Positions 3,484 to 21,248 of a stretch of 33,770 nt of DNA are shown here, one piece after another. Within the stretch, counting starts at the first letter, position 1, and each line of letters begins with the position of its first letter. The stretch covers positions 4,559 to 38,328 of the forward strand of contig DAINOF010000001.1 of NCBI GenBank assembly GCA_036735505.1. Direction: 5' to 3'. The DNA is from Paracoccaceae bacterium (GTDB lineage Bacteria; Pseudomonadota; Alphaproteobacteria; Rhodobacterales; Rhodobacteraceae). Made by a program: the position numbers and the translations under genes. The notes below the pieces were generated by a model that saw only the letters and a program-made list of their open reading frames with translations, was not told the DNA's origin and searched no databases.

Positions 3484-3960
3484 GTGACCGTGCCCGCCCT
3501 GACTGCGGCAAGCTGCGATCCGTCGGACGACGGAAGGCGCGAGGACTGGACCATCGTCGTGCTTCGCCGGGATGGTGCGCCTCCGATCCGCTTTTCCGGC
3601 CGCGAGATCGTCCGGAGCCGCGACGGCGCGCTGGCCGTCGGCATCTGGCAGACGCGGACGGGCGGCTTCGTTCTCTCCCGCTCGATCGGCGACGGAACAG
3701 GCGAGGTCGCCGATCGCCACGCGACGGAGGAAGAGACGATGACCGCCCTCGAAACCTTCTGCCGCGCCATGGACACGCTTCTGGCGAGGCCGCCGGACGG
3801 ACGGCTTGCCGAGCGGCTCGAGGTCGCCGATCTCGTCGAGGAGCTGGCGATCAGGGCCGACCGGCGGCGCCGGTTCCGGATACTGGCCGGACAGGCGCTC
3901 GATACCTTCGACGCGTGGAGCGTCGGGCAGCGGGTGAAGGATGCAGGAGGCGGGACATGA
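3484..3960 (+). CDS. hypothetical protein, paralog 1 of the LRRxGxxPxxFxG family (see 6175 and 6750)
   Basis: GTG start. Shares VLRRDGAPPIRFSGREI, GIWQTRTGGFVLSRS, ALETF and ELAIRA blocks with ORFs 6750..7238 and 6175..6753. Its stop overlaps the next start (ATGA at 3957-3960). Confidence 0.6.
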   Translation: MTVPALTAASCDPSDDGRREDWTIVVLRRDGAPPIRFSGREIVRSRDGALAVGIWQTRTGGFVLSRSIGDGTGEVADRHATEEETMTALETFCRAMDTLLARPPDGRLAERLEVADLVEELAIRADRRRRFRILAGQALDTFDAWSVGQRVKDAGGGT

Positions 3961-5003
3961 GCGATCGCGACGGATACCGGCAGCGGGTGATCACCGTGCG
4001 CGGACGCGCCCGCGCACAGCTGCAGGCAATGCGGAAGGAGCGCCTCGCCAGAAAGCGCAAGCCGCTCGTCGGGCACGATGGCTGGCCGATGACGGCACAG
4101 CCGGCACCGGCGGGGGCCGGCGCATCCGAGGTGCGGGATCTGCCCGCCCCGGATGGGGGGATCCGGGCTGACCCGGATGCCGCAGCGCTTGCGGAGGACG
4201 CCGTCGCTGATTCGTCCGGAATCGCCCCGACTGCGGATGACGACTCAGAGGCAGGGACCGGCGCTCCGGACCAGCCGATCGTGCCCGCGCCGGAGGGGGA
4301 CGTCACCGTGGGACCGGATGCCGACGACCTTGATCCGCACGCGGACACGACGTTTGCGCTGCAAGGGGACGACGCCGACGCCCCGGCGGCCGAAGGCGCT
4401 CCGCCGGACGGCGTCGAGGCAGAGACCGTCGCACCGGACGATCCGCAAATGCCCGCACCAGAGGTGGCGTTCGCGGGACCCGATGCCGAGGTGCTCGACC
4501 GCGACGGGGCAGCGGCCCCTGCGCTGCAAGAGAGCGACGCCGTCGCCGCGGCACCGGAAGGCGCTTCGCCTGAGGGCAGCCTGGCGGAGACGCAGCCAGT
4601 CGAGGTCGCGGATCCGGCAGGTCCGGCCGACCTGACCGAGCCCCGGGCCGATGCTGCGCAGGAGTCGTCGGAATCGCCGGAGACGGCGCCGGCCGCGGAA
4701 GCCGCCCCCTCCGACCCGGACCACGCGGCGAAGCAGCCCGCGACGCCCGGACCTGTCGAGACAAGGCGGACGGACGAAACGGATCTTTTCGAGATCCCCG
4801 GGATCGGTTCGGGTCTTGTGTGGATGCTCAGGTCGGAAGGCGTCACGTCGTTGGCCGAACTCGCCTGCTCCGACGCCGGCGAGCTCGGCCGGCGGCTCGG
4901 CGTCGTCTCCCGTCTTCTCGACCTCGACGATCTCGTCAGGTTCGCGCGCGCGAATCAGGGGCGGCCCGACCCGTCCGGGCGTGCGGACGCGACGGCCCCG
5001 TGA
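3957..5003 (+). CDS. acidic Pro/Ala/Asp/Glu-rich protein with a basic N-terminus and a C-terminal helix-hairpin-helix-like domain
   Basis: Starts MSDRDGYRQRVITVRGRARAQLQAMRKERLARKRK, followed by about 230 aa of acidic low-complexity sequence. The C-terminus reads DLFEIPGIGSGLVWMLRSEGVTSLAELACSDAGELGRRLG (HhH-like). Translationally coupled to 3484..3960. Confidence 0.55.
   Translation: MSDRDGYRQRVITVRGRARAQLQAMRKERLARKRKPLVGHDGWPMTAQPAPAGAGASEVRDLPAPDGGIRADPDAAALAEDAVADSSGIAPTADDDSEAGTGAPDQPIVPAPEGDVTVGPDADDLDPHADTTFALQGDDADAPAAEGAPPDGVEAETVAPDDPQMPAPEVAFAGPDAEVLDRDGAAAPALQESDAVAAAPEGASPEGSLAETQPVEVADPAGPADLTEPRADAAQESSESPETAPAAEAAPSDPDHAAKQPATPGPVETRRTDETDLFEIPGIGSGLVWMLRSEGVTSLAELACSDAGELGRRLGVVSRLLDLDDLVRFARANQGRPDPSGRADATAP
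4284..4616 (+). repeat. diverged tandem duplication (~165 bp / ~55 aa x2) inside the acidic protein gene
   Basis: Unit 1 is PAPEGDVTVGPDADDLDPHADTTFALQGDDADAPAAEGAPPDGVEAETVAPDD. Unit 2 is PAPEVAFAGPDAEVLDRDGAAAPALQESDAVAAAPEGASPEGSLAETQPVEVADP. DNA similarity is also visible, e.g. gggaccggatgccgac / gggacccgatgccgag and gcgctgcaag in both units. Confidence 0.6.
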
Positions 5004-5327: not shown

Positions 5328-5753
5328 ATGAAGGAACTTGGGCAAATCTTCGAGGTCGAGGGGCGATACGAGTTTCGCTACGCCGACCTCAACCTCATCG
5401 TCCGCGGCGATCATCCCGAATGGGTGCTTCAGGCCGCCAGCGAGGTGCTGGGCAAGACGGCCCGCCTCGAGACCGAGAGCAAGATCGACGAGCTGTGTTC
5501 ACTCGTCGAGTTCGAGGCCGCGACCGAAACCGAGGTCGACGCTGCCAAATACGCTCTCAAGGAACGCTTCGAGATCATCCCCCAGTGCATCGTGAGCATG
5601 GGCCGGATGGACTACCGCTGGGCCGCGGAAGAAGCGCGCAGGAAACTGGACCCGGAGTTCGGCAACCAGCCGATCAAGAGAATCCACGACATGTCGCTGA
5701 CCATGAACGACTCGTTCCTCGCGAACGAGCCCGGTGTCGACCTTTCCGAATAA
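5328..5753 (+). CDS. hypothetical protein (141 aa) immediately upstream of pyp
   Basis: AAAGGAG at 5312-5318, then ATG at 5328 (MKELGQIFEVEGRYEFRYADLNLIVRGDHPEW...). No family recognised. It ends 30 nt before pyp on the same strand. Confidence 0.65.
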   Translation: MKELGQIFEVEGRYEFRYADLNLIVRGDHPEWVLQAASEVLGKTARLETESKIDELCSLVEFEAATETEVDAAKYALKERFEIIPQCIVSMGRMDYRWAAEEARRKLDPEFGNQPIKRIHDMSLTMNDSFLANEPGVDLSE

Positions 5754-5783: not shown

Positions 5784-6158
5784 ATGGAAATCATTCCCTT
5801 CGGCAGCCAGGACGTCGACAACATCCTGAGCCGTGAACCCCAGCGCGCCGAGTACCTTCCGTTCGGGGCCGTGCTTCTCGATCGGCAGGGCACGATCGTC
5901 AAGTACAACAAGGCCGAGAGCGTCATCGCCAACCGCAACCCGGCGGATGTCATCGGGAAGAACTTCTTCAACGAGATCGCGCCCTGCGCGAAGGGCAAGC
6001 GGTTCCACGGCGAATTCCTCAAGTTCCACCAGACGGGCCAGATCAACGTGATGTTCGACTACCGCTTCGCCTACAAGGGCGCGGATGTGGGCGTGCGGAT
6101 CCACCTGAAGTCCCAGCCCGACGGCCAGTTCTGCTGGCTCTTCGTCAAGCGCGCCTGA
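5784..6158 (+). CDS. pyp: photoactive yellow protein (PAS-fold xanthopsin photoreceptor)
   Basis: The 124-aa product aligns along its full length with the Halorhodospira PYP sequence as I remember it (MEHVAFGSEDIENTL...QYNAAEGDITGRDP..VIGKNFFKDVAPC...WVFVKRV). Here: MEIIPFGSQDVDNIL...KYNKAESVIANRNPADVIGKNFFNEIAPCAKG...CWLFVKRA. The chromophore Cys codon TGC is at 5985-5987. Equivalents of Tyr42, Glu46 and Arg52 are present. Confidence 0.95.
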   Translation: MEIIPFGSQDVDNILSREPQRAEYLPFGAVLLDRQGTIVKYNKAESVIANRNPADVIGKNFFNEIAPCAKGKRFHGEFLKFHQTGQINVMFDYRFAYKGADVGVRIHLKSQPDGQFCWLFVKRA

Positions 6159-6174
6159 GGCGGGACAGCAGGCG

Positions 6175-6753
6175 ATGCAGGGCGCGGTGGCCCCCGACCA
6201 CGTGGTCACGGTCTCGGCCGAATTGCGGCACCTGCTGTCGCTCGCCGGCCTGCCGCGCAAGCCCCGCCCGGGCTCCGGACCCGACGAGGGCCCCGGCGCC
6301 GCGCCGGCCGCCGGCGACCAGACCGGGGAGTGCCCGGGCGCGGCGTCGGGTCCGCCGCGGGTCGATGTCCTGCTCCGGCGCGACGGCGGCAGGCCACTGA
6401 AACTCCGGGGCATCCTCCTCGTCGACGCAGGCGCGGAGGGGCCCTGGGGGAGCTCACGCCTGCGCGTCTTCCTTGCCGACGACGGGCGCGCCGTCGCACA
6501 GATCGCCTATCTTCCCGACGAGACGCTGCCCGCGCGCCCGGTCTTCCGCGTCGCGAGGATCGGATCGGCCGAGGACCTGCACCGTTTCGTCGCCGAGACC
6601 GAACCCGCTCTGTGCTTCGCGGCGAGCTTCCTTCTGCCCGATGACCCTGCACGACACGCAACCAAGGACCGCCTGGCCCTGCCCGACTTTCTTCCCGGGC
6701 TCATGCGGCTCCGGCGAACCTCTCCTCCCTCACGCGAAGGACTGCATCCATGA
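6175..6753 (+). CDS. hypothetical protein, paralog 2 of the LRRxGxxPxxFxG family, with a low-complexity N-terminal extension
   Basis: The core VDVLLRRDGGRPLKLRGILL...RLRVFLADDGRAVAQIAY...AEDLHRFVAET matches the other two paralogs. The N-terminal ~60 aa is Pro/Gly/Ala-rich, so the true start is uncertain. Its stop overlaps the next start (ATGA at 6750-6753). Confidence 0.5.
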   Translation: MQGAVAPDHVVTVSAELRHLLSLAGLPRKPRPGSGPDEGPGAAPAAGDQTGECPGAASGPPRVDVLLRRDGGRPLKLRGILLVDAGAEGPWGSSRLRVFLADDGRAVAQIAYLPDETLPARPVFRVARIGSAEDLHRFVAETEPALCFAASFLLPDDPARHATKDRLALPDFLPGLMRLRRTSPPSREGLHP

Positions 6754-7238
6754 CCCCGACCCTCACGATGACCGACGGCTATTCCCGCACGGCGGACATG
6801 CCGAGTCTCGGCAGCGGCACCACCCACCGGATCCGGCGTCAGGGCGCGCGGCCGCTCGCCTTCACCGGCACGGAGCTGGCGATGGCGATGAGCTTCACGC
6901 CGACGCTGCCCTACTGGTACGAGATCACGATCTACCGCACCAACACCCAGGCCTTCGTGCTCGCCATCCGACTCTTCCATGTCTCGGAGGACGAGAAGGA
7001 CCAGTCGGATGCCTGGACGTTCGACACTCTTCCGGAGGTGCTCGACGCGATTGAGACCTATGATGCGGGTCGCGACGTCGTCGCGGACATTGTCAGCCTT
7101 CCCTCGGACGCGCCTGCAATCGAGCTTGCCGCACGGGCGATGGATCTGCGCGCCCGCGTCAGCGCCGCGCGCCACCATTTCGCCGGCCTGGTCGGCGAGC
7201 TTTTCGCCGAGCTCGACATCGCCGCAGAGGCCGCGTGA
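6750..7238 (+). CDS. hypothetical protein, paralog 3 of the LRRxGxxPxxFxG family
   Basis: HRIRRQGARPLAFTGTEL, YEITIYRTNTQAFVLAIR, VLDAIETY and IELAARAMDLRARV align block by block with ORF 3484..3960. Coupled on both sides: ATGA at 6750 and GTGA at 7235. Confidence 0.65.
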   Translation: MTPTLTMTDGYSRTADMPSLGSGTTHRIRRQGARPLAFTGTELAMAMSFTPTLPYWYEITIYRTNTQAFVLAIRLFHVSEDEKDQSDAWTFDTLPEVLDAIETYDAGRDVVADIVSLPSDAPAIELAARAMDLRARVSAARHHFAGLVGELFAELDIAAEAA

Positions 7239-8497
7239 CTACTCGGACGGACGCACCCCTGTCGGCTCCGGGCGACCTCGCGCCCGGCGCCTTCCTTTCG
7301 CCGGCGTCCGTCCGCCGCATCTGCATCGACCTGATCGGGGCCGAACAGGACCGGATGATCCGGGACAGGCGGCTCCAGGAGCGTCATCACATCGCGCGGC
7401 GGCTTCACGCTCCCGCGTCGAATGACGCCGACCTCGAGATCGGCGAGGAAGCGCTGGGCCTCGACAGCCTCGCGCGGCTCGACCTCGTCGGCTCGGTAAG
7501 CCGGTTCTTTTGCCTCGCCGACACCGGCGCGGAGGACCTCCTCCTCGTCCATCGCGGGCTGCGCGACTGGGTCCGGATCGTTTCGGCGCATCTCGACCGG
7601 GTCGGGGCGACCGCGCGGATCGGCTTCGAGACGTCAGGCAGCACCGGCACCCCAAAGAGGATCGTTCATGCCGGCCGTGACCTTGACGCCGAAGTGGCGG
7701 AGGGCCTGGGGGTCGTCCTCGGCCACTCGGCGAAAGGAGCGCGGTTCCTCATCGCCGTCCCGCCAAGGCACATCTACGGCTTTCTCTGGGGCACACTGCT
7801 GCCCGATCGGGCAGAGGGCGCTGTGATCGACCTGCAGCACTCGGTGGGAGAAGCCCTGTTCCGGCACTGCCGCCCCGGCGACGTGGTCATCGGCACACCC
7901 TTCACGTGGGAACGTGCCGCCCGTCGGGGACAGACCCTCCCGCGAAGCGTGACGGGCCTGTGTTCGGCCGGACCGTCCACCCCCGCGACATGGGAGGCAG
8001 CGGACCGCCTGGGCCTCGACAGGTTCGTCGAGATCTACGGCTCGACCGAGACGGGCGGCGTCGGCTGGCGGCAGCGGCCGGACGAGCCGTTCCGTCTCTC
8101 GGCGCGGCTCGACCGTCACGGCGCGGGACTTCGGCGGCGATCGGACGGTGTCGAGCTTGCCTTGCAGGACCGCCTCGACTGGCGTGGAAACGACAGCTTC
8201 GACCTTGCGGGACGGCGCGACGACGTGGTGCAGGTCGCCGGCACCAACGTGAGTATCGGCCGTGTCGCCCTGCTCCTCGGCGGTGTGGACGGTGTCGCCG
8301 AAGCTGCGGTGCGTCTCGACGGGGAGCGACTGAAGGCCCTGATCGTCCCTGAGGATACGGGCGCGGGGACCGAAGACCTCGAAGTGGCGCTGCGCGACCG
8401 CGCCGCGCGCAACCTCGACGCGCCGGCGCGCCCGGATCGGTATTCCTTCGCCGCCGCCATGCCACGGAACGCCATGGGAAAACTCGCCGACTGGTAA
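7235..8497 (+). CDS. pcl: p-hydroxycinnamate (p-coumarate):CoA ligase, short adenylate-forming enzyme
   Basis: AMP-binding motifs FETSGSTGTPKRIVHAGRD and YGSTETGGVGWR, plus a C-terminal MPRNAMGKLADW. About 420 aa with no extra domains. Lies in the pyp operon, as in Rhodobacter pyp loci. Confidence 0.8.
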   Translation: MTTRTDAPLSAPGDLAPGAFLSPASVRRICIDLIGAEQDRMIRDRRLQERHHIARRLHAPASNDADLEIGEEALGLDSLARLDLVGSVSRFFCLADTGAEDLLLVHRGLRDWVRIVSAHLDRVGATARIGFETSGSTGTPKRIVHAGRDLDAEVAEGLGVVLGHSAKGARFLIAVPPRHIYGFLWGTLLPDRAEGAVIDLQHSVGEALFRHCRPGDVVIGTPFTWERAARRGQTLPRSVTGLCSAGPSTPATWEAADRLGLDRFVEIYGSTETGGVGWRQRPDEPFRLSARLDRHGAGLRRRSDGVELALQDRLDWRGNDSFDLAGRRDDVVQVAGTNVSIGRVALLLGGVDGVAEAAVRLDGERLKALIVPEDTGAGTEDLEVALRDRAARNLDAPARPDRYSFAAAMPRNAMGKLADW

Positions 8498-8499
8498 GT

Positions 8500-13010: not shown

Positions 13011-13940
13011 TTGAACCAGCCCGCGCTCGACGTTGCGAAACTCGCGGCGGCCACGATCGGCCCCGAACGGCCCTGGATCGGCCTCGCGACCGGCCGATCC
13101 TTCTTCATGGACGACGACATCCGCAGGATTGCGGAAAAGGCCGCCTTCTACGCGCGCGCCGGAGCGAGCGTGCATTTCCGCGGGATGGCGGGATCGGGCA
13201 AAACCTCGCTCGCCTTCCACGTGGCCGAGATGCTCGGCCGCCCGATCTCGTTCATCGCCGGCAACAACTGGCTGACCAGCACCGACTTCATCGGCAAGGA
13301 GATCGGCCATTCCTCGGTCTCGGTGGTGGACCGCTACGTGCAGACGGTCCGCCGGACCGAAAGCATGACCCGCGGGGAATGGAAGGAGTCCGTGCTCGCC
13401 GTCGCGATGGATCGGGGACACACCCTCATCTACGACGAGTTCACGCGCGCCTCGCCCGAAGCGAACTCGACGCTCCTGTCGGTTCTCGAGGAAGGCGTGC
13501 TGGTGGTGACGGACCAGACGAGCGAGCGCCCCTACATCAACGCCCATCCCTGCTTCCGGGTGATCCTCACGTCCAACCCCCACGACTACGTCGGCGTCAA
13601 CTCCGCTCCCGACGCCCTCATGGACCGTCTCCTGACGCTCGAACTCGGCGAACCGTCGAGCGCCACGCTCACCGGGATCGTCGCGGTCCGCAGCGGGATC
13701 GACCGTCCGACCGCCCGGCGCATCGTGAGGCTCGTGGAGGCCGCACACAAGGCGACGCCCGATACATCGCTCGGCTCGATGCGCACGGCCATCCTGATCG
13801 CGCGGATCGCGGCCTTCGCCCGCACCGAGGGCCTCCTCAGCGACGAGCTTCTGGCACAGATCGCGGCCGACGTCCTCGCCGGTCGCGGCGCCGAACTCGG
13901 GGCGGCCGCGATGGCGCGGCTCCTCGCAGCCGACACGTGA
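13011..13940 (+). CDS. gvpN: gas vesicle protein GvpN (AAA+ ATPase)
   Basis: VHFRGMAGSGKTSLAFHVAE Walker A, LIYDEFTRASPE Walker B, and overall GvpN/CbbQ-like layout. TTG start at 13011. Confidence 0.9.
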   Translation: MNQPALDVAKLAAATIGPERPWIGLATGRSFFMDDDIRRIAEKAAFYARAGASVHFRGMAGSGKTSLAFHVAEMLGRPISFIAGNNWLTSTDFIGKEIGHSSVSVVDRYVQTVRRTESMTRGEWKESVLAVAMDRGHTLIYDEFTRASPEANSTLLSVLEEGVLVVTDQTSERPYINAHPCFRVILTSNPHDYVGVNSAPDALMDRLLTLELGEPSSATLTGIVAVRSGIDRPTARRIVRLVEAAHKATPDTSLGSMRTAILIARIAAFARTEGLLSDELLAQIAADVLAGRGAELGAAAMARLLAADT

Positions 13941-13956
13941 ACCCGGGGGATCGAGC

Positions 13957-14181
13957 ATGCAGCGTCCCAAGACCTCTCCGATGCGGCGTCCCGCGGCCAT
14001 GTCCGGCAAGGCCGCGCGAACGCCGAAGGAGGCCGCCATCCATCTCGTCCGGCTCGAGTTCGACCGCAGCAGGATCCAGATCGGCCTGAGGCAGGCCGAG
14101 ATGCGGGCCGATCTCTACCGGGCCGAAGATGCCGCCATCGAGCGGCGACGGCGCGCGCTGCTCGACATCCTCACGCGCTGA
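13957..14181 (+). CDS. small basic coiled-coil protein in the gvpN-to-gvpO position (possibly GvpV-like)
   Basis: 74-aa product MQRPKTSPMRRPAAMSGKAARTPKEAAIHLVRLEFDRSRIQIGLRQAEMRADLYRAEDAAIERRRRALLDILTR. Its position after gvpN matches gvpV in other clusters. The assignment rests on position and size only. Confidence 0.4.
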   Translation: MQRPKTSPMRRPAAMSGKAARTPKEAAIHLVRLEFDRSRIQIGLRQAEMRADLYRAEDAAIERRRRALLDILTR

Positions 14182-14203
14182 CCCTCCCCAAGGAGCCACG
14201 TCC

Positions 14204-14512
14204 ATGGAACACCCGGCACCCGACGTCTTCAGCAGCAAGCGCAAGGCCGCCGGCGTCGGCCCGACCGAGGCCATCGAGGCGGCCCGGCGCGCCATCTCGG
14301 CGACCGGGCACGCCGACATCGACGCCGTCGCCGCCTGCGAGGCCGTCGAGGACGGATCCTGGCGGGTCGAGGTCGAGGTGGTGGAGAGCCACGCGAGGAT
14401 GGGCGACAACGATCTCATCGCCGCCTTCGACGTGCGCGTCGCCGAGACGGGCGAAGTCCGCGGCTTCCGCCGCCTGCGCCGCTACTTCCGGGAAGACGGG
14501 CCGCAGACATGA
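14204..14512 (+). CDS. gvpO: gas vesicle protein GvpO
   Basis: AGGAG at 14191-14195, ATG at 14204. The product ends ...WRVEVEVVESHARMGDNDLIAAFDVRVAETGEVRGFRRLRRYFRED, typical of GvpO C-termini. Confidence 0.75.
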   Translation: MEHPAPDVFSSKRKAAGVGPTEAIEAARRAISATGHADIDAVAACEAVEDGSWRVEVEVVESHARMGDNDLIAAFDVRVAETGEVRGFRRLRRYFREDGPQT

Positions 14513-14829
14513 GCTTCAGCGTGCAGAACCCGATGCACCGTGACGGCCTCGCCGACGTGCTCGAACGGATCCTCGACAAGGGGATCGTCATCGCCGGCGA
14601 CGTCTCGGTGTCGCTCGTCGGCATCGAGCTTCTGACGATCCGGCTCCGCCTGCTGATCGCGACGGTGGACAAGGCCAAGGAGCTCGGCATCAACTGGTGG
14701 GAGACCGACCCGCGCCTGACGGCCTCCGCCGATCGGCTGGCCGAGGACAACGCAGGCCTCCTGCGGCGCATCGAAGAGCTCGAGGCGCGGCTTCTGGCCT
14801 CGGACCGCGCGCAGGAGGCCGTCGGATGA
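14509..14829 (+). CDS. gvpJ: gas vesicle protein GvpJ (GvpA-family minor structural protein)
   Basis: [55 protein letters not shown] is the GvpA/J core plus the J-type extension. ATGA overlap with gvpO. Confidence 0.9.
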   Translation: MSFSVQNPMHRDGLADVLERILDKGIVIAGDVSVSLVGIELLTIRLRLLIATVDKAKELGINWWETDPRLTASADRLAEDNAGLLRRIEELEARLLASDRAQEAVG

Positions 14830-15386
14830 AGGGTCCACGAAAGCCGGCCGGCGGCGATGCGCGTGGCGACATCGACCTGAAGCTCGGCAACCTCCTTGGC
14901 GAACTCGGCTCCGCCCTGTCCGAGATGATCGACCGGCTGGACCAGGGAACCACGGGCGAGATCCGGCGCGACCGCGAGTTCACGACCGAGCGGGGTCCGG
15001 TCCGGGCCCAGGCGGGGATCCGGATCCGGCTCGCAGGGACCGAGGTGCCGCTCAAACGGAACGCTGCGGCGCCGGCAGCGACTCCCGACGCGGCCGCGCC
15101 CCCACCACGCGCCGCAACCGCGCCTGCCCCGCGCCCGATCCAGGCCGAGGTGGTCGACGACGGCCGGGTCTGGCGGCTGACGGCCGAGCTTCCCGGCGCC
15201 GCCCGGGAGGACCTCGATCTCGCCGTCGAGGAGGGACATCTCCTGATCACGGCGCGGACCCGCACCCGCAGCTTCGCCGACCGCGTCGCGCTGCCCGCCT
15301 CGACCGGGATCGCCGATCTGAGGGTGAGCCTGCAGAACGGGATCCTCGAGATCGAGGCCGCGTCACACAGGGGTCCGGACCGATGA
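14826..15386 (+). CDS. gvpH: Hsp20/alpha-crystallin domain protein (GvpH-like)
   Basis: C-terminal VWRLTAELPGAAREDLDLAVEEGHLLITARTRTRSFADRVALP...LRVSLQNGILEIE is a small-HSP fold. ATGA overlap on both sides. Confidence 0.7.
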   Translation: MKGPRKPAGGDARGDIDLKLGNLLGELGSALSEMIDRLDQGTTGEIRRDREFTTERGPVRAQAGIRIRLAGTEVPLKRNAAAPAATPDAAAPPPRAATAPAPRPIQAEVVDDGRVWRLTAELPGAAREDLDLAVEEGHLLITARTRTRSFADRVALPASTGIADLRVSLQNGILEIEAASHRGPDR

Positions 15387-16147
15387 TCTACCTCTACGGC
15401 CTCCTTGCCCCCGATTTCGACACGGACGCGACGACGCTCACCGCGCTCGAGGGCGTGACCGGGGAGGTCGCGCTCGCGAACCTCGGCCCGGCTCTTCTCG
15501 TCCATGGCCGCTGCGAGGAGACGGAGATCCTGCCGCGGCGGCGCCACCTTCTCGCCCATGCGCGCGTCCTCGAGACGCTGGCCGGGGCCGGCGCGGTGCT
15601 GCCCATGCGCTTCGGGATGATCACACCGTCCATCGAGACCGTCGCTGCGGCGCTGACGCAGCAGAAGGACGACCTCGCCGCCCAGTTTGCGGCGGTGCAG
15701 GGCTGCGCCGAATATGGCATCCGCGTCGTGTTCCCCCGCGACGCGGCGCTGCCCGCCGCCGTCGACGGCAATGCGGCGCTCGCGCGCGAGCGGTCGCGGC
15801 TTCTGGCCGCGGGGCGCGCGGGGCGCATGGAAACGGCCGAGTTCGGGCGGCAGCTTGCGGAGGTGGTCGACCGGCGCCGGGCCGCCACGCAGCGCGAGCT
15901 TGTCGCAGCCCTCGCCCCCGAATTCGCCTCCTACGTGCTGCGGGCGCCTGAGGAAGACGTGCAGGTCCTGGCGGTGGATGCGCTCGTTCCCGACAGCCGC
16001 GCGGACGGTCTCGGGGCCCGGATCGAGGCGCTGGCGCGGGCGTCGGCCTTCGCGCCCGGAGCAGAGCCGCAGGTTTCCATCGTCGGCCCGGGCCCGGCCT
16101 ACAGTTTCGTGCGGCTCACCCTGGAACTCGCGCGGCAGGCCGCCTGA
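15383..16147 (+). CDS. gas vesicle protein GvpF/GvpL family (copy 1)
   Basis: MIYLYGLL N-terminus, HARVLETLAGAGAVLPMRFGMI, and C-terminal VSIVGPGPAYSFV (variant of the GPWPPYSF motif). Confidence 0.85.
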   Translation: MIYLYGLLAPDFDTDATTLTALEGVTGEVALANLGPALLVHGRCEETEILPRRRHLLAHARVLETLAGAGAVLPMRFGMITPSIETVAAALTQQKDDLAAQFAAVQGCAEYGIRVVFPRDAALPAAVDGNAALARERSRLLAAGRAGRMETAEFGRQLAEVVDRRRAATQRELVAALAPEFASYVLRAPEEDVQVLAVDALVPDSRADGLGARIEALARASAFAPGAEPQVSIVGPGPAYSFVRLTLELARQAA

Positions 16148-16377
16148 TGGGCCTCCTGTCGCGACTCCTTCTCCTGCCGGTCTCGGCACCGCTCTCGGGG
16201 TCGCTGTGGATCGCCCAGCAGATCACCGAAAGCGTGGAGCGGGAAAGAAACAGCCCCGCGGCCCTTCGCGCCGCCCTGCGCGAGGCCGAGCTGCGCCTTA
16301 TCGCGGGCGAGCTCTCCGAAGAGGACTACGAAGTGATCGAGACCGACCTCCTCGTCCGCATGAGGGAAGCGGGATGA
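16147..16377 (+). CDS. gvpG: gas vesicle protein GvpG
   Basis: MGLLSRLLLLPVSAPLSGSLWIAQQI...LRLIAGELSEEDYEVIETDLLVRM is the typical GvpG pattern. TGATG overlap with the upstream gene. Confidence 0.8.
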   Translation: MGLLSRLLLLPVSAPLSGSLWIAQQITESVERERNSPAALRAALREAELRLIAGELSEEDYEVIETDLLVRMREAG

Positions 16378-18467
16378 CCGAGGCGGGCGTCTTCCGCATC
16401 GTGGTGGCAGGCGAGAGGTCGCGGGGCCTCGTGCGCATGGCGCGCGCCGATCTCGAAGCGCTGGCGCTGCGGTCGGGCGACACGGTCCGCATCGACGGCG
16501 CCCGAAGCACGCATGCGCGCGTGGTCGCCGGACAGGGCCCGGAGGGCACCGTCGTCATGGAGCCGCTCGTGGCCGAGAACGCGGGCCTCGGGCCCGACGG
16601 GGCGGCGCAGGTGACGCCCGCGCGCCTGCCCCGTCTGGACAGCGTGCTCCTGCGGATCGAGACCGGGCATGCCCCGGCCCCGGCGGATCTTTCGGACGCC
16701 CTCTTCGACATGACCCTCACGCAGGGCGACCGGATCCGGCTCGTCCTGCCTGGCGGCCGCGCCGCCGAGGCGTCGGTCGTCGCGGCGGCCCCGCCCGGCG
16801 GCGGCCTGTTCGGCGAGGGCTCCGTCGTGACGCTCGAGGCCGCACCGGCGACGGCGCCCGCCTTCGACGGCGTGGGCGGCCTTCAGGAGCAGATCGCGCG
16901 TGTCGAGGAGATGATCAGCACCCCGTTGCTCCGGCCCGAACTCTACGAGCGGCTCGGGATCTCGCCGCCGCGCGGCATCCTGTTCTGCGGCCCGCCCGGA
17001 TCGGGCAAGACGCTTCTCGCCCGTGCCGTCGCGCGCCGCACCGAGGCAGCGTTCTTCCACATCGACGGCCCCGAAATCATCTCGAAGCACTACGGCGACA
17101 GCGAAGAGGCGCTGCGCCGCGTCTTTGACGCCGCTGTAAAGCGCGCGCCCTCCATCGTCTTCATCGACGAACTCGACGCCATCGCGCCGCGCCGCGACGC
17201 GCTGTCGAGCGAAAAACAGGTCGAGCGCCGCGTCGTGGCGCAGCTCCTGACCCTTCTCGACGGGATCGAGGACCGGGGCCGGGTGGTGGTCATGGCTGCC
17301 ACGAACCTGCCCGACAGCCTCGATCCGGCGCTCCGCCGTCCGGGCCGGTTCGACCGCGAGATCGTGTTCCGCCCGCCGACGGAGGCGCAGCGGCGCGACA
17401 TCCTGCGCATTCAGCTCGACCGCGCACCGCTCGACGCCGATGCCGATCTCGACTCGGTTGCGGCCGCGACGCATGGCTACGTCGGCGCCGATCTCGCCGC
17501 CCTGGCGCGGGAGGCAGCGGTGGCGGCGCTCACCCGCACCGTCGCCGAGGCGGGCGGCGAAGACCGCGTGCGGCTCGAGGACCTGAGGATCACCCGTGCA
17601 GACCTGGCGCGGGGGCTCGCGGCGACCGGGCCCAGCGCGCTGCGCGGCGCGACGCAGGATGCGGTTCCGGTGACCTGGGACGACGTGGCCGGCGCGGATG
17701 CGGCGCGCGAGGCGCTGCAGCAGGCGGTGATCTGGCCCCAGCGGCATCCTGCCCTCCTCGCCGCACTCGGCGTCCGCCCGGCGCGGGGCGTGCTGCTCGC
17801 CGGCCCGCCCGGCTGCGGCAAGACGCTCGCGGCACGCGCCCTCGCAACCGAGAGCCGGATGAACTTCCTTCACGTGCGCCCGCCGACCCTCCTGTCGCGA
17901 TATCTGGGCGAGGCCGAGCGCGCGGTCGCCGAGCTCTTCGAGCGCGCCCGCGCCACGGCGCCGGCGCTCATCTTCTTCGACGAGTTCGACGCGCTGGCGC
18001 CGCGTCGCACCGGGCGCGACCCCACGCTCGACCGCATCGTCGCGCAGCTCCTGACCGAGTTCGACGGCCTTGCCGGTCACCCCGGCGTCGTGGTCCTCGC
18101 CGCGACGAACCGACCCGCCGCGATCGACCAGGCCCTGACCCGGCCGGGCCGGTTCGATGTCGTCGTCCGGTTCGCCCTTCCCGACGCGGCCGCGCGGCAG
18201 GCGATCCTTGCCGCGCATCTGAAGGGCCGCGCGGCGAGTGCGGACGTCGACACCGCTGTGCTCGCCGCGGCGACGCCGGACTTCTCGGGCGCCGATCTCG
18301 CGGCGCTTGTCGACGAGGCCGCGCGCGGGGCTCTCGCCAGCGCGCTCGCCGGCGGCGCGGGCGAGATCCGATCGCTCGGCCGGGACGATCTCGAGGCCGC
18401 GCTGCGCCGGATGCTCGAGGGGCGCGCGGTGCGCCGGGACGACTACATAGCGGAGGTCACCGAATGA
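16374..18467 (+). CDS. Cdc48/p97-like tandem AAA+ ATPase (N-domain, D1, D2)
   Basis: N-terminal substrate-domain-like VFRIVVAGERSRGLVRMARADLEALALRSGDTVRIDG. D1 has GPPGSGKTLLARAVA and IVFIDELDA. D2 has GPPGCGKTLAARALA and LIFFDEFDA. RPGRFD arginine-finger regions are present in both. ATGA overlaps with gvpG (16374) and the next gvpF/L (18464). Confidence 0.9.
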   Translation: MTEAGVFRIVVAGERSRGLVRMARADLEALALRSGDTVRIDGARSTHARVVAGQGPEGTVVMEPLVAENAGLGPDGAAQVTPARLPRLDSVLLRIETGHAPAPADLSDALFDMTLTQGDRIRLVLPGGRAAEASVVAAAPPGGGLFGEGSVVTLEAAPATAPAFDGVGGLQEQIARVEEMISTPLLRPELYERLGISPPRGILFCGPPGSGKTLLARAVARRTEAAFFHIDGPEIISKHYGDSEEALRRVFDAAVKRAPSIVFIDELDAIAPRRDALSSEKQVERRVVAQLLTLLDGIEDRGRVVVMAATNLPDSLDPALRRPGRFDREIVFRPPTEAQRRDILRIQLDRAPLDADADLDSVAAATHGYVGADLAALAREAAVAALTRTVAEAGGEDRVRLEDLRITRADLARGLAATGPSALRGATQDAVPVTWDDVAGADAAREALQQAVIWPQRHPALLAALGVRPARGVLLAGPPGCGKTLAARALATESRMNFLHVRPPTLLSRYLGEAERAVAELFERARATAPALIFFDEFDALAPRRTGRDPTLDRIVAQLLTEFDGLAGHPGVVVLAATNRPAAIDQALTRPGRFDVVVRFALPDAAARQAILAAHLKGRAASADVDTAVLAAATPDFSGADLAALVDEAARGALASALAGGAGEIRSLGRDDLEAALRRMLEGRAVRRDDYIAEVTE

Positions 18468-19366
18468 TGCGGCGCGAACTCGTGGCCATCCTTCCCGGCG
18501 AGGGTCCGCCGACCCCTCCCGAGGGATGCACCGTCGTCCGCGCGGCGAAACATGCCGCGGTGCTTCGGTGGAGCGGTCTCCTGCCGGCACCACGCAAGGC
18601 CGACGCACTGCGCGCCGCGGCGGCACGGGCGCGCATTCTCGAGACGCTGATGACCTCGGGCACGGTGCTGCCGGTCCTGCCCGGCCAGCGCATCCGCGCG
18701 TCGGAGGCCGAGCGGCTCGTGACGGCGAACCTTCCCGTGCTCGAACGACTGGCGTCCCAGTTCGCAGGACGCCGGCAGTTCCAGATCACGCTGCGCTGGG
18801 ACGTGACGCGGGCCGTCGCCCGGTTCGGCGCTTCGGAGGGCGCGGCGGCCGCAGACGCCGCGGGTCCAGCCATCGCCGCGCGCCTGCGGGAGCGCGTGGC
18901 GCAGGCGCTCGAGGACACCGGTGCCGAGGTGATGATGCTCCCCGTGGCCGAAGATGTGGTGGCCAACGCGGTCGTGCTTGTCGACGCGGCGTCGGAACCG
19001 CTGCTCGACGCGGCGCTCGCCGAGATCGACGGTCTGTGGACCGAGGGGTTCCGCATCAGGATGATCGGCCCCTATCCGCCGGTCAGCTTCGCCTCGCTCG
19101 TCTTCGACCGGATGGACCGGCGTCAGATCGAGGAGGCGCAGGCGGCCTTCGGCCTCGACCCTGGCTTCTCCGAAACCGCGCTGCGGCAGGCCCGGCGCGA
19201 GGTCATCATGCAGGCGGGGGCGGACCGGCACGAGGCGCTGCGCCGGCAGGCCGACCTGCTCGCCTGCGTGGCACGGCTTGGAGGGGCCTGCGCCCGGGTC
19301 CACGTCGCCCGCGTCTGGAGCGAAGGACTGTCCTCGGCCACGGCCGCCCGGGCGCGCGCAGCATGA
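18464..19366 (+). CDS. gas vesicle protein GvpF/GvpL family (copy 2)
   Basis: RILETLMTSGTVLPVLPG, FRIRMIGPYPPVSFA, and length and layout typical of GvpL. Confidence 0.75.
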   Translation: MMRRELVAILPGEGPPTPPEGCTVVRAAKHAAVLRWSGLLPAPRKADALRAAAARARILETLMTSGTVLPVLPGQRIRASEAERLVTANLPVLERLASQFAGRRQFQITLRWDVTRAVARFGASEGAAAADAAGPAIAARLRERVAQALEDTGAEVMMLPVAEDVVANAVVLVDAASEPLLDAALAEIDGLWTEGFRIRMIGPYPPVSFASLVFDRMDRRQIEEAQAAFGLDPGFSETALRQARREVIMQAGADRHEALRRQADLLACVARLGGACARVHVARVWSEGLSSATAARARAA

Positions 19367-20064
19367 CGGGGCGCCCGCTCCTCCTCCTCGGCCTCGTGCC
19401 CGCCGGATCCCATCCCGCGGCGCAGGTGCCGCCCCACCGCCGCATCGCCTGCGAGCCGGACCTCGTCGCGATCGCCCTCGACGCGCCGGAGGATCCGGGG
19501 GACAACCCCGAAGAGGCGGCGCTGGGACTCGCCGTCCTCCAGGCCACGATCCTGTCCGTCTATGCGGAAGCGGGCGACGTCCTGCCCGTCGCGCTCGGCG
19601 CCGCGTTCTCGGATCCCCGCGCGCTCATCGCGCATCTGATGCTCCATGCGGACCGCATCGCGGCCGAACGCGGCGCGCTCGCGGGATCGGCCGAATATGT
19701 CCTCGCGATCGACCGGCGCGCGCCGCCCCCGCGGGCGGTCCCCGCGTCCGGACCCTCCGGCTACCTCCGGCAGCGCCTGGCCGAGCGCAACGTCCGCCGC
19801 GACCTCGAGGACGACAGGCGCGCCTTCGCCGCCACGGCGCTCGCGGCGCTTCGGTCCGCGGGTGCGGAGCTTGCGCTGCCGCGGACGCCGGCGCCGACCG
19901 TCCTCCTCTCGGTTTCGGCGCTCCTGCCGCGTCCGGCGGTCGCGAAGGTCGCGGACGCACTGGCCGACATGGCGACCAAGGCGGCAGCCCTCGGGCTCGC
20001 CATGCGCATGATCGGGCCCTGCGCCCCGTTCAGTTTCGTGTCGTCGGATCGACCCGATGCATGA
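19363..20064 (+). CDS. gas vesicle protein GvpF/GvpL family (copy 3)
   Basis: LQATILSVYAEAGDVLPVALGAAF and LAMRMIGPCAPFSFV. ATGA overlap at 19363. Confidence 0.7.
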   Translation: MTGRPLLLLGLVPAGSHPAAQVPPHRRIACEPDLVAIALDAPEDPGDNPEEAALGLAVLQATILSVYAEAGDVLPVALGAAFSDPRALIAHLMLHADRIAAERGALAGSAEYVLAIDRRAPPPRAVPASGPSGYLRQRLAERNVRRDLEDDRRAFAATALAALRSAGAELALPRTPAPTVLLSVSALLPRPAVAKVADALADMATKAAALGLAMRMIGPCAPFSFVSSDRPDA

Positions 20065-20278
20065 CCGCGCCGGCGAGATCCGCATCGCCTCGGCGGAAGA
20101 CGCGCTGCAGAGCCGGGAAGGCCGTCTTGTCGATCTGGTCGATTCGCTTCTCGACAAGGGCGTCTGCCTGAGGGGGGAACTCTGGCTGTCGGTGGCGGAT
20201 GTGGACCTCGTCTTCGTCGGGCTTGATCTCGTCCTCGGCAGCCATGACACGATCTCGCGCACAGGCCGGCGCGCATGA
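20057..20278 (+). CDS. GvpA-family small protein (GvpS/GvpM-like)
   Basis: LVDLVDSLLDKGVCLRGELWLSVADVDLVFVGLDLVL matches the GvpA-family core (LxDxLDKGxxxxGxxxxSxxxxxLxxxxL). 8-nt overlap with the upstream gene. Confidence 0.7.
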   Translation: MHDRAGEIRIASAEDALQSREGRLVDLVDSLLDKGVCLRGELWLSVADVDLVFVGLDLVLGSHDTISRTGRRA

Positions 20279-20919
20279 GGGCGCTGGGCTGGACACTGCC
20301 AGGCGAAGCGGCACCCGATGGTCTTGCAACGGTCGATCTCGACACCTGCGCGGTGGTCGTGGCCGCCGATGCGGCCGGCGCGCAACCGCGGGACCTGATG
20401 CGGCTGCAGATCGCTTGCGCGCGCCACCTCCCTGCCTTCCTGCCGCTCGCGCCGAACGGCGTCACGACGCTCGCCGCGGCGCTCGACACGGGCCGCACCC
20501 GCAGCGCGGCGATCGCCGCCCGCCTCGAGGCACTGCGGGGTCTCGTGCAGGTCTCGCTGCGCGCCGACTGGTCCGCCCCGTCCGCGGACGGATATCCCTC
20601 GCGCCCCACGGCCACGCCCGGCCGGGGCTGGCTCGCTGCGCGCGCGGAGGTCCGGCGCCGGAACGAGGAGCAGAGGGTTCGCATCGCAGCAAGCCTTCGT
20701 GCCGTCCTCGCAGCGCATGCGACCCGGGGGCTCGTCGAACGGAACGCGCCCACCATCCTGCGGCTCGACGCGCTCATGCCGGCTGAAGCGGCCACGCCCG
20801 TGGACGGGCTGGCCGACGCGCTGGCCGGGCGCACGGACTTGCGCGACGCGCGGCTGGTGCTGACGGGGCCCTGGCCAGCGCTCGCCTTCGCGGATCTGCC
20901 GGAGGCCGGGCCATGCTGA
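20275..20919 (+). CDS. divergent GvpF/GvpL family protein (copy 4)
   Basis: The C-terminal ARLVLTGPWPALAFADL matches the GPWPPYSF motif. Overall size and position fit. ATGA overlap at 20275. Confidence 0.6.
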   Translation: MRALGWTLPGEAAPDGLATVDLDTCAVVVAADAAGAQPRDLMRLQIACARHLPAFLPLAPNGVTTLAAALDTGRTRSAAIAARLEALRGLVQVSLRADWSAPSADGYPSRPTATPGRGWLAARAEVRRRNEEQRVRIAASLRAVLAAHATRGLVERNAPTILRLDALMPAEAATPVDGLADALAGRTDLRDARLVLTGPWPALAFADLPEAGPC

Positions 20920-21248
20920 ACGCTGACGACCCTCTCGCCGTGGACCCGGAAGATATCCGGGAGGCGCTGGCGGCGATCACCCGGAGCGGCCGGGTCAGGA
21001 TCGATCCCGACCGGGTCGAGCAGGACCTCGCCCGCCTCGTGCTGGGACTGGTCGAGTTCCTGCGACAGCTGATGGAGCTTCAGGCTATCCGCCGGATGGA
21101 GAACGGCACGCTGACGCCCGAACAGGAAGAACAGGTCGGAATGACGCTCATGCGCGCCGAGGGTGCGATCCATGATCTCGCCGGCAAGTTCGGCCTCTCG
21201 CCCGGCGATCTCGCGCTCGATCTCGGCCCGCTCGGCCGCACGATCTGA
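20913..21248 (+). CDS. gvpK: gas vesicle protein GvpK
   Basis: RIDPDRVEQDLARLVLGLVEFLRQLMELQAIRRMENGTLTPEQEEQVGMTLMRAEGAIHDL...LDLGPLG is the canonical GvpK pattern. Confidence 0.9.
   Translation: MLNADDPLAVDPEDIREALAAITRSGRVRIDPDRVEQDLARLVLGLVEFLRQLMELQAIRRMENGTLTPEQEEQVGMTLMRAEGAIHDLAGKFGLSPGDLALDLGPLGRTI

What the first reader, a model, noticed from the sequence alone, without database searches (positions are those of the whole stretch)
6175..7238. Two unknown, translationally coupled ORFs wedged between pyp and pcl belong to a three-member paralogous family
Seen in the sequence: ORFs 6175..6753 and 6750..7238, plus a third ORF at 3484..3960, share colinear blocks.
- Block 1: (V/L/I)(L/R)RR(D/Q)G(A/G)xP(I/L)x(F/L)xG, read as VLRRDGAPPIRFSG, LLRRDGGRPLKLRG and RIRRQGARPLAFTG.
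- Block 2: a beta-hairpin-like GIWQTRTGGFVL, ITIYRTNTQAFVL and RVFLADDGRAVAQ.
- Block 3: a helix ending in ET(F/Y), read as ALETF, AIETY and FVAET.
- The 3484 and 6750 proteins also share ELAxRA.
The chain from 6175 to pcl is linked by overlapping stop/start codons (ATGA at 6750, GTGA at 7235), and only 16 nt separate pyp from 6175. That arrangement implies stoichiometric co-expression with the photoreceptor and its chromophore ligase. I recognise no known domain.
Inference: these are candidates for PYP-binding partners, holo-PYP maturation factors, or the first step of signal relay.
Basis: partly seen in the sequence, partly recalled or inferred. Interest (0 to 1): 0.8.

Follow-up and report, generated by a model that had tools for sequence, protein, structure and literature searches.

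The report
New protein triplet linking PYP, gas vesicles
The two unknown genes between the photoactive yellow protein gene and its chromophore ligase, plus a third nearby, are true paralogs of an undescribed protein family that recurs as a gene triplet in gas-vesicle clusters with or without the photoreceptor, making it a testable candidate for the unknown output of this light sensor.

Summary
ORFs 6175-6753 (orfA), 6750-7238 (orfB) and 3484-3960 (P3) are real genes and distant paralogs. Profile-profile probabilities are 94-97% (E 1e-7 to 2e-11), and AlphaFold gives orfA and orfB the same five-strand-plus-helix core. No Pfam, NCBIfam, PHROG or PDB family claims them.

In 28 Rhodobacterales loci with full flanks, orfB always sits in orfX-pyp-orfA-orfB-pcl. 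P3 is coupled to a helix-hairpin-helix (HhH) protein gene and is present exactly where gas-vesicle (gvp) genes are.

The family is wider: 873 clusters at 50% identity. Sampled distant members again form triplets, arranged fam1-fam2-fam3-gvpA-HhH, inside gvp clusters without pyp. In another lineage pyp lies inside the triplet.

The published PYP-binding protein of R. capsulatus best fits the other neighbour, orfX, not this family.

Best reading (confidence about 0.4): a hetero-oligomeric adaptor or regulatory module of gas-vesicle loci that PYP has been wired into. The function is inferred from gene context only.

"PYP-specific partner or maturation factor" is only partly supported.

The parts
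6175..6753 (+). orfA, 192 aa, the fast-evolving paralog. It has an N-terminal conserved helix (VT[IV]SxELRxL), a low-complexity linker and the family core domain.
   Evidence: ORF. Family alignment A4 has 25 orthologs at 16-35% identity. AF2. hhalign against P3 and orfB.
6355..6615 (+). orfA core domain (residues 61-147): five beta strands plus a helix
   Evidence: AF2 pLDDT is about 89-96 across residues 61-140; strands 63-67, 75-89, 92-101, 106-114 and 123-129; helices 132-141 and 144-147.
6750..7238 (+). orfB, 162 aa, the strongly conserved acidic paralog (pI 4.7)
   Evidence: 74 clusters of orthologs. Alignment A1 has 15 invariant columns. AF2 pLDDT 86.8.
6819..7076 (+). orfB core domain (residues 24-109), including the invariant loop AMAMSFTP..PYWYE
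7116..7232 (+). orfB long C-terminal helix (residues 123-161) carrying the motif HFAGLVGELF, which P3 shares
3484..3960 (+). P3, 158 aa, the third paralog. It is homologous to orfB over nearly its full length.
   Evidence: hhalign 97.3%, E 2e-11, 134 columns. Alignment A3 of 29 orthologs.
3957..5003 (+). Acidic protein with a C-terminal helix-hairpin-helix (HhH) domain, translationally coupled to P3 by an ATGA at 3957-3960. It is the partner gene of the triplet in all lineages.
   Evidence: Weak HHH_5/DUF4332 hits at residues 289-333 of the 3915-start ORF. Sequence. The C-terminal domain is conserved in Rhodobacterales loci and in pyp-free gvp clusters.
5328..5753 (+). orfX, 141 aa, acidic and unrelated to the triplet. 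It is the probable ortholog of the R. capsulatus PYP-binding protein PBP.
   Evidence: Present in 28/28 loci. Its properties match PBP. hhalign probability against the triplet families is below 0.4%.
5784..6158 (+). pyp, photoactive yellow protein
   Evidence: TIGR02373, E 1.1e-52, above the cut-off.
7235..8497 (+). pcl, 4-coumarate-CoA ligase; its start overlaps the orfB stop (GTGA)
   Evidence: TIGR02372, E 4.6e-112, above the cut-off. Sequence.
13011..21248 (+). Gas-vesicle gene cluster (GvpN, GvpO, GvpA/J, GvpF/L, GvpG, GvpL/F, GvpK), the context that P3 and the HhH gene track
   Evidence: Pfam hits. Co-occurrence table.
21163..22881 (+). Aromatic amino-acid ammonia lyase (TAL candidate), which would make the PYP chromophore precursor
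   Evidence: PF00221, E 2.3e-141.

Best explanation
orfA, orfB and P3 are three diverged copies of one small protein. Each has a five-stranded beta sheet plus a helix. orfB and P3 also carry a long C-terminal helix. Together they belong to an undescribed family that typically occurs as a triplet.

Proposed mechanism:
- The three copies assemble with each other into a hetero-oligomer.
- Together with the co-conserved HhH protein they form an adaptor or regulatory module of alphaproteobacterial gas-vesicle loci.
- In PYP-bearing lineages the photoreceptor system (pyp, pcl, TAL, and in Rhodobacterales the PBP-like orfX) has been wired into this module, so that light controls it.
- orfB is the subunit nearest PYP and pCL.
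- P3 plus HhH is the end nearest gvp.
- orfA is a dispensable bridging copy.

Shown here: the homology, the shared fold, the triplet organisation, and the strict gene linkage to pyp/pcl and to gvp/HhH.

Inferred only: any physical interaction, the direction of signal flow, and the assumption that the output is gas-vesicle formation.
For: - Paralogy and shared fold.
- orfB is always found with pyp and pcl: 28/28 full-flank Rhodobacterales loci, including genomes without gvp nearby such as C. sphaeroides and Rhodovulum.
- P3 is present if and only if gvp genes lie within 10 kb: 25 loci with both, 3 with neither, 0 discordant.
- P3 is ATGA-coupled to the HhH gene.
- In the gvp-less loci only orfB (L006, L042) or orfA plus orfB (C. 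sphaeroides L004) remain.
- Triplet-gvpA-HhH lies inside gvp clusters with no pyp in view in several independent lineages (L051, L059, L061, L067, L078).
- pyp is inserted between fam1 and fam2 of such a triplet, with pcl divergent and TAL nearby (L065, L069, L070, L072).
- More distant members still sit in pyp/pcl/gvp contexts (L049, L056, L058).
- Natural orfA-like/orfB-like fusion proteins exist (P0083 at 350 aa, P0088 at 300 aa).
- The orfA/orfB junction is tight or overlapping in 31 of 36 loci.
- orfB is much better conserved than orfA or P3 (41-79% against 16-36% identity to the window copy). It has an invariant surface-loop motif, as expected for a subunit that contacts the conserved PYP or pCL.
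- A link between PYP and gas vesicles was already noted from the R. capsulatus gene context (Kyndt 2004, cited in PMC3646047).
Against: - There is no experimental or computational evidence of binding between any of these proteins. The AF2 output gives no interface information.
- orfB persists in genomes with no gvp nearby, so its role cannot be only gas-vesicle control.
- No recognisable DNA-binding or enzymatic motif is present, and orfB is acidic.
- The metagenomic 'pyp-free' contigs are 2-24 kb long, so pyp could lie elsewhere in those genomes.
- Only the best 150 of 873 representative hits were listed and about ten were checked for context. Unrelated contexts may exist among the rest.
- One member is coupled to a bilin reductase, which would equally fit a chromophore-related role.
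- The assignment of PBP to orfX rests on length, mass, pI and epsilon280, not on the sequence.
Confidence: 0.4

Rival explanations
1. Gas-vesicle assembly accessory proteins. The triplet would be a set of chaperone- or scaffold-like proteins that handle GvpA or nucleate vesicles. It would be co-expressed with the major gvpA, and PYP would be linked only because both serve light-dependent buoyancy.
For: - In pyp-free clusters the triplet sits directly upstream of a gvpA gene in the same orientation, between GvpK and a large Ala-rich membrane protein on one side and the HhH gene on the other.
- The family is absent from curated regulator families.
- The proteins are acidic with an amphipathic C-terminal helix.
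Against: - orfB, with or without orfA, is retained with pyp and pcl in genomes that have no gvp genes within 10 kb (C. sphaeroides L004, Rhodovulum L042).
- No member was found by tblastn in the plasmid collection, so plasmid-borne gvp clusters lack it and it is not a general vesicle component.
- A gap of 150-200 nt separates fam3 from gvpA (coordinates), which suggests a separate gvpA promoter.
Confidence: 0.22
2. Nucleic-acid-binding regulators. The beta-sheet-plus-helix core would be a PUR/Whirly/WGR-like module that binds DNA or RNA directly, for example at the gvpA promoter or leader, together with the HhH protein.
For: - The only recurrent structural neighbours of both models are small nucleic-acid-binding beta-alpha modules. 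These are Borrelia Pur-alpha (probability 0.98 and 0.82, TM about 0.52-0.54 on the target), levivirus coat proteins, PARP1 (the chains include a WGR domain), MRP1/2, and a phage WGR-domain protein (probability 0.99, rmsd 1.6 A over 60 residues).
- Conserved Arg residues lie in the first hairpin, and P3 homologs are often basic, with pI up to 10.
- The partner protein has an HhH motif.
Against: - No Foldseek match to the PDB reaches E 0.001, and overall TM-scores on the query are 0.2-0.3.
- Pfam WGR and other nucleic-acid-binding models give no hit at E <= 1.
- orfB is acidic (pI 4.2-5.1 across the family).
Confidence: 0.15
3. Chromophore handling. Family members would deliver or attach chromophores, helping pCL load p-coumarate onto apo-PYP.
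For: - orfB is next to pcl in every Rhodobacterales locus with pcl in view, and distant members P0125 and P0194 also lie next to pcl on the opposite strand (L049, L058).
- orfB is start/stop-overlapped with pcl in the window.
- One distant member overlaps a ferredoxin-dependent bilin reductase gene (L053).
Against: - Triplets occur in gvp clusters with no chromophore enzyme in view.
- P3 tracks gvp, not pcl.
- Holo-PYP was reported from E. coli expressing only TAL and pCL with pyp (Kyndt 2003, title in the reference list of PMC9664959). Established knowledge, not tested here, is that apo-PYP reacts with activated p-coumarate without a helper.
Confidence: 0.1
4. The ORFs are not functional genes. 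They would be chance open frames in 70% GC DNA, or decaying duplicates.
For: - High-GC DNA yields many long spurious ORFs, as the overlapping frames show.
- orfA evolves fast and is missing in a few lineages.
Against: - The frames are conserved with intact orthologs in dozens of genomes and metagenomes.
- GC3 is 0.83-0.86.
- AF2 gives confident cores.
- No HMM hit falls in any other frame.
Confidence: 0.01

Closest known systems
PBP, the PYP-binding protein of Rhodobacter capsulatus (RCAP_rcc01067; Kim et al. 2021, bioRxiv 10.1101/2021.06.01.446672)
   Same: It is a small acidic protein encoded next to pyp in a gas-vesicle-linked locus and was proposed as the downstream partner of PYP. It is the only neighbour-encoded PYP partner that came up in the papers searched here, so it is the model for how the triplet might work.
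   Different: There is no detectable homology. PBP's published properties (142 aa, 16 kDa, epsilon280 15,500, pI 3.9) match the orfX family (139-146 aa; 2 Trp + 3 Tyr in 20 of 39 members). They do not match orfA (192 aa, epsilon 6,990, pI 7.9) or orfB (162 aa, epsilon 18,450). hhalign probability between orfX and the triplet families is below 0.4%. The PBP sequence itself could not be obtained here.
EXLDI protein family (NCBIfam TIGR04342), uncharacterised
   Same: It is the only curated model with a consistent weak match. 33 of 44 orfB orthologs hit it, with best E 0.0015, over the beta-sheet core (residues 27-89 against profile positions 7-68).
   Different: Scores of about 18 bits are far below the 32-bit cut-off. 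P3 and orfA do not hit it. The one paper found that mentions it (PMC11076991) was not read, and no function turned up. No PYP or gvp context is known for it.
PUR repeat / Whirly-like fold (Borrelia Pur-alpha, PDB 3nm7) and the WGR domain
   Same: These share the small beta-beta-beta-beta(-beta)-alpha topology. About 60-68 residues superpose at 1.6-4.8 A, with Foldseek probability up to 0.98-0.99. PUR repeats pair up to form a domain, which parallels paralog pairing and the fusions seen here.
   Different: E-values (0.065 and above against the PDB) are not significant. There is no sequence similarity and no Pfam WGR hit. The proteins are acidic, and nucleic-acid binding is untested.
Cluster-encoded gas-vesicle regulators (haloarchaeal GvpD/GvpE; Serratia GvrA/B/C). 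Comparison from general knowledge, not tested here.
   Same: Their genes are embedded next to gvpA and control vesicle formation, which is the role proposed here.
   Different: The window's three proteins match no curated Pfam or NCBIfam model apart from the weak EXLDI similarity. No sequences of these regulators were compared directly. A regulatory role for the triplet is only inferred.
Bradyrhizobium sp. ORS278 island carrying a bacteriophytochrome, phycocyanobilin synthesis genes and gvp genes (PMC3899966)
   Same: It has the same design: a photoreceptor, its chromophore-synthesis genes and a gas-vesicle cluster on one island. One family member is coupled to a bilin reductase gene.
   Different: Whether that island contains the triplet was not tested. 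The L053 contig is only 2.9 kb long.

Membership tests
EXLDI protein (TIGR04342) | Whole-protein score at or above the curated cut-off (32 bits) | tested here: not met
   orfB scores 18 bits, E 0.0028. orfA and P3 give no hit. 33 of 44 orfB orthologs give weak hits, best E 0.0015.
EXLDI protein (TIGR04342) | The name-giving E-x-L-D-I motif | tested here: inconclusive
   orfB has EVLDAI in helix 1, but the match covers only profile positions 7-68 of 124. The position of the motif in the model could not be checked.
PYP-binding protein PBP (RCAP_rcc01067) | 142 residues, about 16 kDa, epsilon280 1.55e4, strongly acidic, encoded next to pyp | tested here: not met
   orfA is 192 aa, 20.3 kDa, epsilon 6,990, pI 7.9. 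orfB is 162 aa, 17.8 kDa, epsilon 18,450. The neighbour orfX fits.
PYP-binding protein PBP (RCAP_rcc01067) | Sequence homology to PBP | not testable with these tools
PYP-binding protein PBP (RCAP_rcc01067) | Light-dependent binding to PYP | not testable with these tools
   This needs biochemistry.
PUR repeat / Whirly-like fold | Significant structural match to a beta-beta-beta-beta-alpha PUR repeat | tested here: inconclusive
   Against 3nm7: probability 0.98 and 0.82, TM 0.54 and 0.52 on the target, but E 0.065 and 0.10.
PUR repeat / Whirly-like fold | Binding of single-stranded DNA or RNA | not testable with these tools
WGR domain (PF05406) | A Pfam profile match | tested here: not met
   No WGR hit at E <= 1 for the window's P3, orfA and orfB or for the 29 P3-family members. 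There is only a local fold match to one phage WGR protein.
Canonical Gvp families (GvpA/J/M, F/L, G, K, N, O) | A Pfam profile match | tested here: not met
   The three proteins give no such hit, whereas the window's true Gvp proteins hit strongly.
The new triplet family itself (working definition) | Signature [LI]RRxGxxP[LI]xFxG, then W[YH]E, then GxFV, then LExYD, with a five-strand-plus-helix core | tested here: met
   All three window proteins meet it. AF2 confirms the core for orfA and orfB. P3 was not modelled.

The most novel reading that the evidence does not exclude
The triplet, together with its HhH partner, would be the long-sought output module of single-domain PYP in alphaproteobacteria. 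On this reading it is a pre-existing hetero-oligomeric controller of gas-vesicle formation into which pyp, pcl and TAL were inserted at least twice in different arrangements. Light-activated PYP would then switch buoyancy by remodelling this complex, directly or through the PBP-like orfX. It would also define a new protein fold family.
Probability: 0.3. Interest if true: 0.85.

Novelty: categorically new. Interest (0 to 1): 0.7.

Why it matters
PYP is one of the best-studied photoreceptors, yet papers as recent as 2022-2026 still call its downstream partner and biological output unknown. This analysis turns a row of 'hypothetical proteins' into a defined, widely conserved family with a recurrent architecture of three paralogs plus an HhH protein. 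That architecture ties PYP physically into gas-vesicle loci and also exists without PYP. This gives concrete, cheap experiments: deletions in R. capsulatus, pull-downs with dark and lit PYP and PBP, and gvpA reporter assays. Those experiments address how PYP signals and how alphaproteobacteria regulate or assemble gas vesicles. The result is also relevant to engineered gas vesicles and to PYP-based optogenetic tools.

Tried and rejected
Searches that found nothing:
- Pfam, NCBIfam and PHROGs scans of the three proteins, their neighbours and, for some libraries, family members gave nothing above cut-off.
- PDB sequence searches with orfX and with the orfB profile gave no hits at E <= 10.
- Foldseek of both AF2 models against the PDB gave no match at E <= 0.001.
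- Foldseek of the orfB model against BFVD gave one unnamed phage protein at E 1e-4, which was not followed up.
- tblastn of orfB against 72,556 plasmids gave no match.
- The promoter and terminator scan of 3200-8800 was uninformative.

Technical failures:
A tighter subgroup worked.
- An alignment for modelling the natural orfA-orfB fusion P0083 placed the orfA sequences on the wrong domain, so it was dropped. orfA alone was modelled instead.

Identity of PBP:
- I tried to settle it through locus tags in the literature. The gene order stays ambiguous, so the assignment to orfX rests on physical parameters.

Readings rejected:
- Spurious ORFs, because of conservation and composition.
- Membership of EXLDI, WGR or PUR, because the tests failed or were inconclusive.
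- orfX as a fourth paralog, because the hhalign probability is below 0.4%.
Full report
**1. What is in the window**

The window is about 70% GC. On the + strand it carries the following genes:
- P3 (3484-3960).
- An acidic protein with a C-terminal helix-hairpin-helix (HhH) domain (3957-5003).
- orfX (5328-5753).
- pyp (5784-6158; TIGR02373, E 1e-52).
- orfA (6175-6753).
- orfB (6750-7238).
- pcl (7235-8497; TIGR02372, E 5e-112).
- A soluble chemoreceptor with several PAS domains (five matched stretches), and a triple-CheW protein.
- A gas-vesicle cluster: GvpN, O, A/J, F/L, G, L/F, K.
- An aromatic amino-acid lyase, the TAL candidate.

P3 is coupled to the HhH gene by an ATGA at 3957-3960 in the same way. 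All three ORFs have coding-type GC3 of 0.83-0.86.

**2. Is the paralogy real?**

Pairwise BLASTP alone is marginal (E 4e-5, 0.006 and 0.004). I therefore collected orthologs:
- 74 clusters for orfB from the protein database.
- 39 genome loci.
- From those loci, 28 P3 orthologs and 24 orfA orthologs.

Profile-profile comparison gives:

| Comparison | Probability | E-value | Aligned columns |
|---|---|---|---|
| P3 vs orfB | 97.3% | 2e-11 | 134 (nearly full length) |
| orfA vs P3 | 96.1% | 3.5e-9 | 90 |
| orfA vs orfB | 94.2% | 1.2e-7 | 60 |
| orfX vs each (control) | below 0.4% | - | - |

HMMs built without the window's own sequences find the other paralogs in a six-frame translation of the window and nothing else. 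The P3 HMM also detects the orfB gene in nearly every related locus, at E between 1e-3 and 1e-12.

AlphaFold2 gives orfB a confident model: pLDDT 86.8, five strands at 24-91, a helix at 94-103 and a long helix at 123-161. It gives orfA the same core at pLDDT about 89-96 for residues 61-140, with disordered ends.

'ELAxRA' is not; the true shared C-terminal motif is [FY]xxLxGxxL.

**3. Known families**

- No Pfam, NCBIfam or PHROG model claims the proteins.
- The only consistent signal is a sub-threshold similarity of orfB orthologs to the uncharacterised EXLDI family (33 of 44 members, best E 0.0015, cut-off not met).
- PDB sequence searches with the orfB family profile and with orfX find nothing.
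- Foldseek finds no significant PDB neighbour for either model.
- The recurring weak local matches are small beta-alpha nucleic-acid-binding modules: Pur-alpha, levivirus coats, PARP1 (whose chains include a WGR domain), MRP1/2, and a phage WGR protein.

I treat these as leads on topology, not as family membership.

**4. Gene context in Rhodobacterales**

Every locus with enough flank shows orfX-pyp-orfA-orfB-pcl. The P3-HhH pair usually lies divergently upstream. For the 28 loci with at least 6 kb on both sides:

| Gene | Loci with the gene (of 28) |
|---|---|
| pyp | 28 |
| orfX | 28 |
| pcl | 28 |
| orfA | 26 |
| P3 | 25 |
| HhH | 23 |
| gvp genes | 25 |

- P3 and gvp co-occur perfectly: 25 loci have both, 3 have neither, none is discordant.
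- The gvp-less loci are C. sphaeroides, a MAG (metagenome-assembled genome) and Rhodovulum. They keep orfB with pyp and pcl, lack P3, and in two of the three also lack orfA.
- The orfA/orfB junction is a 4-nt overlap in 9 loci, another overlap in 5, and a spacer of 20 nt or less in 17, out of 36.
- orfB is far more conserved (41-79% identity to the window copy) than orfA or P3 (16-36%).

**5. The family beyond Rhodobacterales**

An exhaustive HMM search of 1.84 billion representative proteins gives 873 clusters at E <= 1e-3 and 158 at E <= 1e-10. Most of the 150 listed hits are 135-200 aa and match over most of their length. Two of them are natural orfA-like/orfB-like fusions: P0083 and P0088.

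Context look-ups of distant members and a metagenome scan show a recurrent tandem triplet of paralogs in two architectures:

(i) Without pyp: [858-891 aa Ala-rich membrane-anchored protein]-fam1-fam2-fam3-gvpA-[about 200 aa protein]. The C-terminal HhH domain of that last protein is homologous to the one in the window's 3957-5003 protein. The whole unit lies inside gvp clusters with no pyp, pcl or TAL in view. L051/52 and L059 show all of it. L061, L067 and L078 show the triplet with gvpA and the HhH gene. Shorter contigs show parts (L057, L060, L064, L066, L073-75, L077, L079).

(ii) With pyp: pcl(-)|fam1-pyp-fam2-fam3-gvpA-HhH. TAL and other gvp genes lie nearby in L065. No orfX homolog is detected. 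L065, L069, L070 and L072 show it in full; L068, L071 and L076 in part.

Other observations:
- Other members lie in the Rhodobacterales-type cassette (L056) or next to pcl (L049, L058).
- One member overlaps a ferredoxin-dependent bilin reductase gene (L053).

The family is therefore not PYP-specific. It is tied to gas-vesicle loci and to photoreceptor or chromophore genes, and pyp has been placed in or next to the triplet in at least two different ways.

**6. Literature**

PBP is a 'PYP-binding protein' encoded next to pyp in R. capsulatus. It binds the UV-generated long-lived state of Rc-PYP, first as a PBP dimer and then as a hexamer (10.1101/2021.06.01.446672). Its sequence is only available as an image. 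Its reported numbers are 142 aa, 16 kDa, epsilon280 15,500 and an acidic pI.

Those numbers fit the orfX family: 139-146 aa, 110-115 Da per residue, 2 Trp + 3 Tyr (15,470) in 20 of 39 members, pI 4.4-4.8. They do not fit orfA or orfB.

Locus-tag order could not settle the point. I put about 80% on PBP being orfX.

A 2022 survey lists the genes flanking pyp in these bacteria simply as unannotated, and states that PYP's downstream signalling is unknown (PMC9664959). The PYP-gvp linkage in R. capsulatus and Loktanella has been noted before (PMC3646047). So has an analogous phytochrome-phycocyanobilin-gvp island in Bradyrhizobium (PMC3899966). None of the papers found or read here describes the triplet family.

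**7. Interpretation**

Shown:
- A new family with a shared fold.
- The triplet organisation and its constant HhH partner.
- Strict linkage of orfB to pyp and pcl, and of P3 and HhH to gvp.
- Natural fusions, and tight translational linkage.

Inferred:
- The copies form a hetero-oligomeric adaptor or regulatory module of gas-vesicle loci.
- PYP, through PBP/orfX in Rhodobacterales, feeds light information into that module.
- orfB is the PYP/pCL-proximal subunit, and P3-HhH is the gvp-proximal end.

Confidence in this reading is about 0.4. The rivals are:
- A GvpA-assembly accessory role (0.22).
- Direct nucleic-acid binding (0.15), which is really a mechanistic variant of the main model.
- Chromophore handling (0.10).
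- Non-genes (0.01).

The main weakness is that nothing here tests physical interaction. In addition, orfB persists where no gvp genes are nearby, so its role cannot be gas-vesicle control alone.

**8. Verdict**

The family and the module are undescribed. The finding makes the open question of PYP output directly testable. Interest is 0.7.

Noticed in passing
window 3957-3960 and 3957-5003: The P3 stop overlaps an in-frame ATG (ATGA) that starts an acidic 348-aa protein. That protein has a basic N-terminus, a long acidic low-complexity middle and a C-terminal helix-hairpin-helix domain. The same C-terminal domain ends the triplet-gvpA unit in pyp-free gas-vesicle clusters.
   Followed up: partly
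window 5268/5328-5753: orfX is a conserved acidic protein of about 141 aa upstream of pyp. Gene callers use the ATG at 5328. It matches the published physical parameters of the R. capsulatus PYP-binding protein PBP, but its sequence identity with PBP could not be checked.
   Followed up: partly
window 8708-12939: A soluble methyl-accepting chemotaxis protein with several PAS domains (five matched stretches) and a three-domain CheW protein are inserted between pcl and gvpN. The same insertion occurs only in the Roseivivax and Maritimibacter-like loci (L012, L015, L031), which hints at a second, chemotaxis-type output.
   Followed up: partly
window 20913-22881: The TAL candidate ORF (listed start 21163) overlaps the end of gvpK (21248) by 86 nt, so its true start is probably further downstream. 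TAL sits at the far end of the gvp cluster, about 13 kb from pyp and pcl.
   Followed up: no
P0083 (350 aa), P0088 (300 aa); also P0209 (392 aa): P0083 and P0088 are natural single-chain fusions of an orfA-like and an orfB-like copy joined by a Pro/Ala-rich linker. P0209 carries two tandem core domains. Gene-calling artefacts were not excluded.
   Followed up: partly
L053:249-1443 (and L054): A family member overlaps by 8 nt the start of a ferredoxin-dependent bilin reductase gene (PF05996). This suggests the family also accompanies bilin-based photoreceptor systems. The contig is too short to see more.
   Followed up: no
L051:4199-6874, L059:3572-6148, L057:1-1221: A protein of 858-891 aa, Ala-rich, probably membrane-anchored at its N-terminus, with no Pfam hit for the two copies scanned (L051, L057), immediately precedes the triplet in pyp-free gas-vesicle clusters. 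No counterpart was detected in the window.
   Followed up: no
window 16377-18464 and 19366-20913: Two stretches inside the gvp cluster have no ORF that passed the composition filter and were not annotated here. They may hold further gvp or unknown genes.
   Followed up: no
BFVD entry A0A6G6XIE7: An unnamed 156-aa phage protein is the only Foldseek match below E 0.001 to the orfB model (E 1e-4, 163 aligned columns). It may be a viral relative of the family.
   Followed up: no
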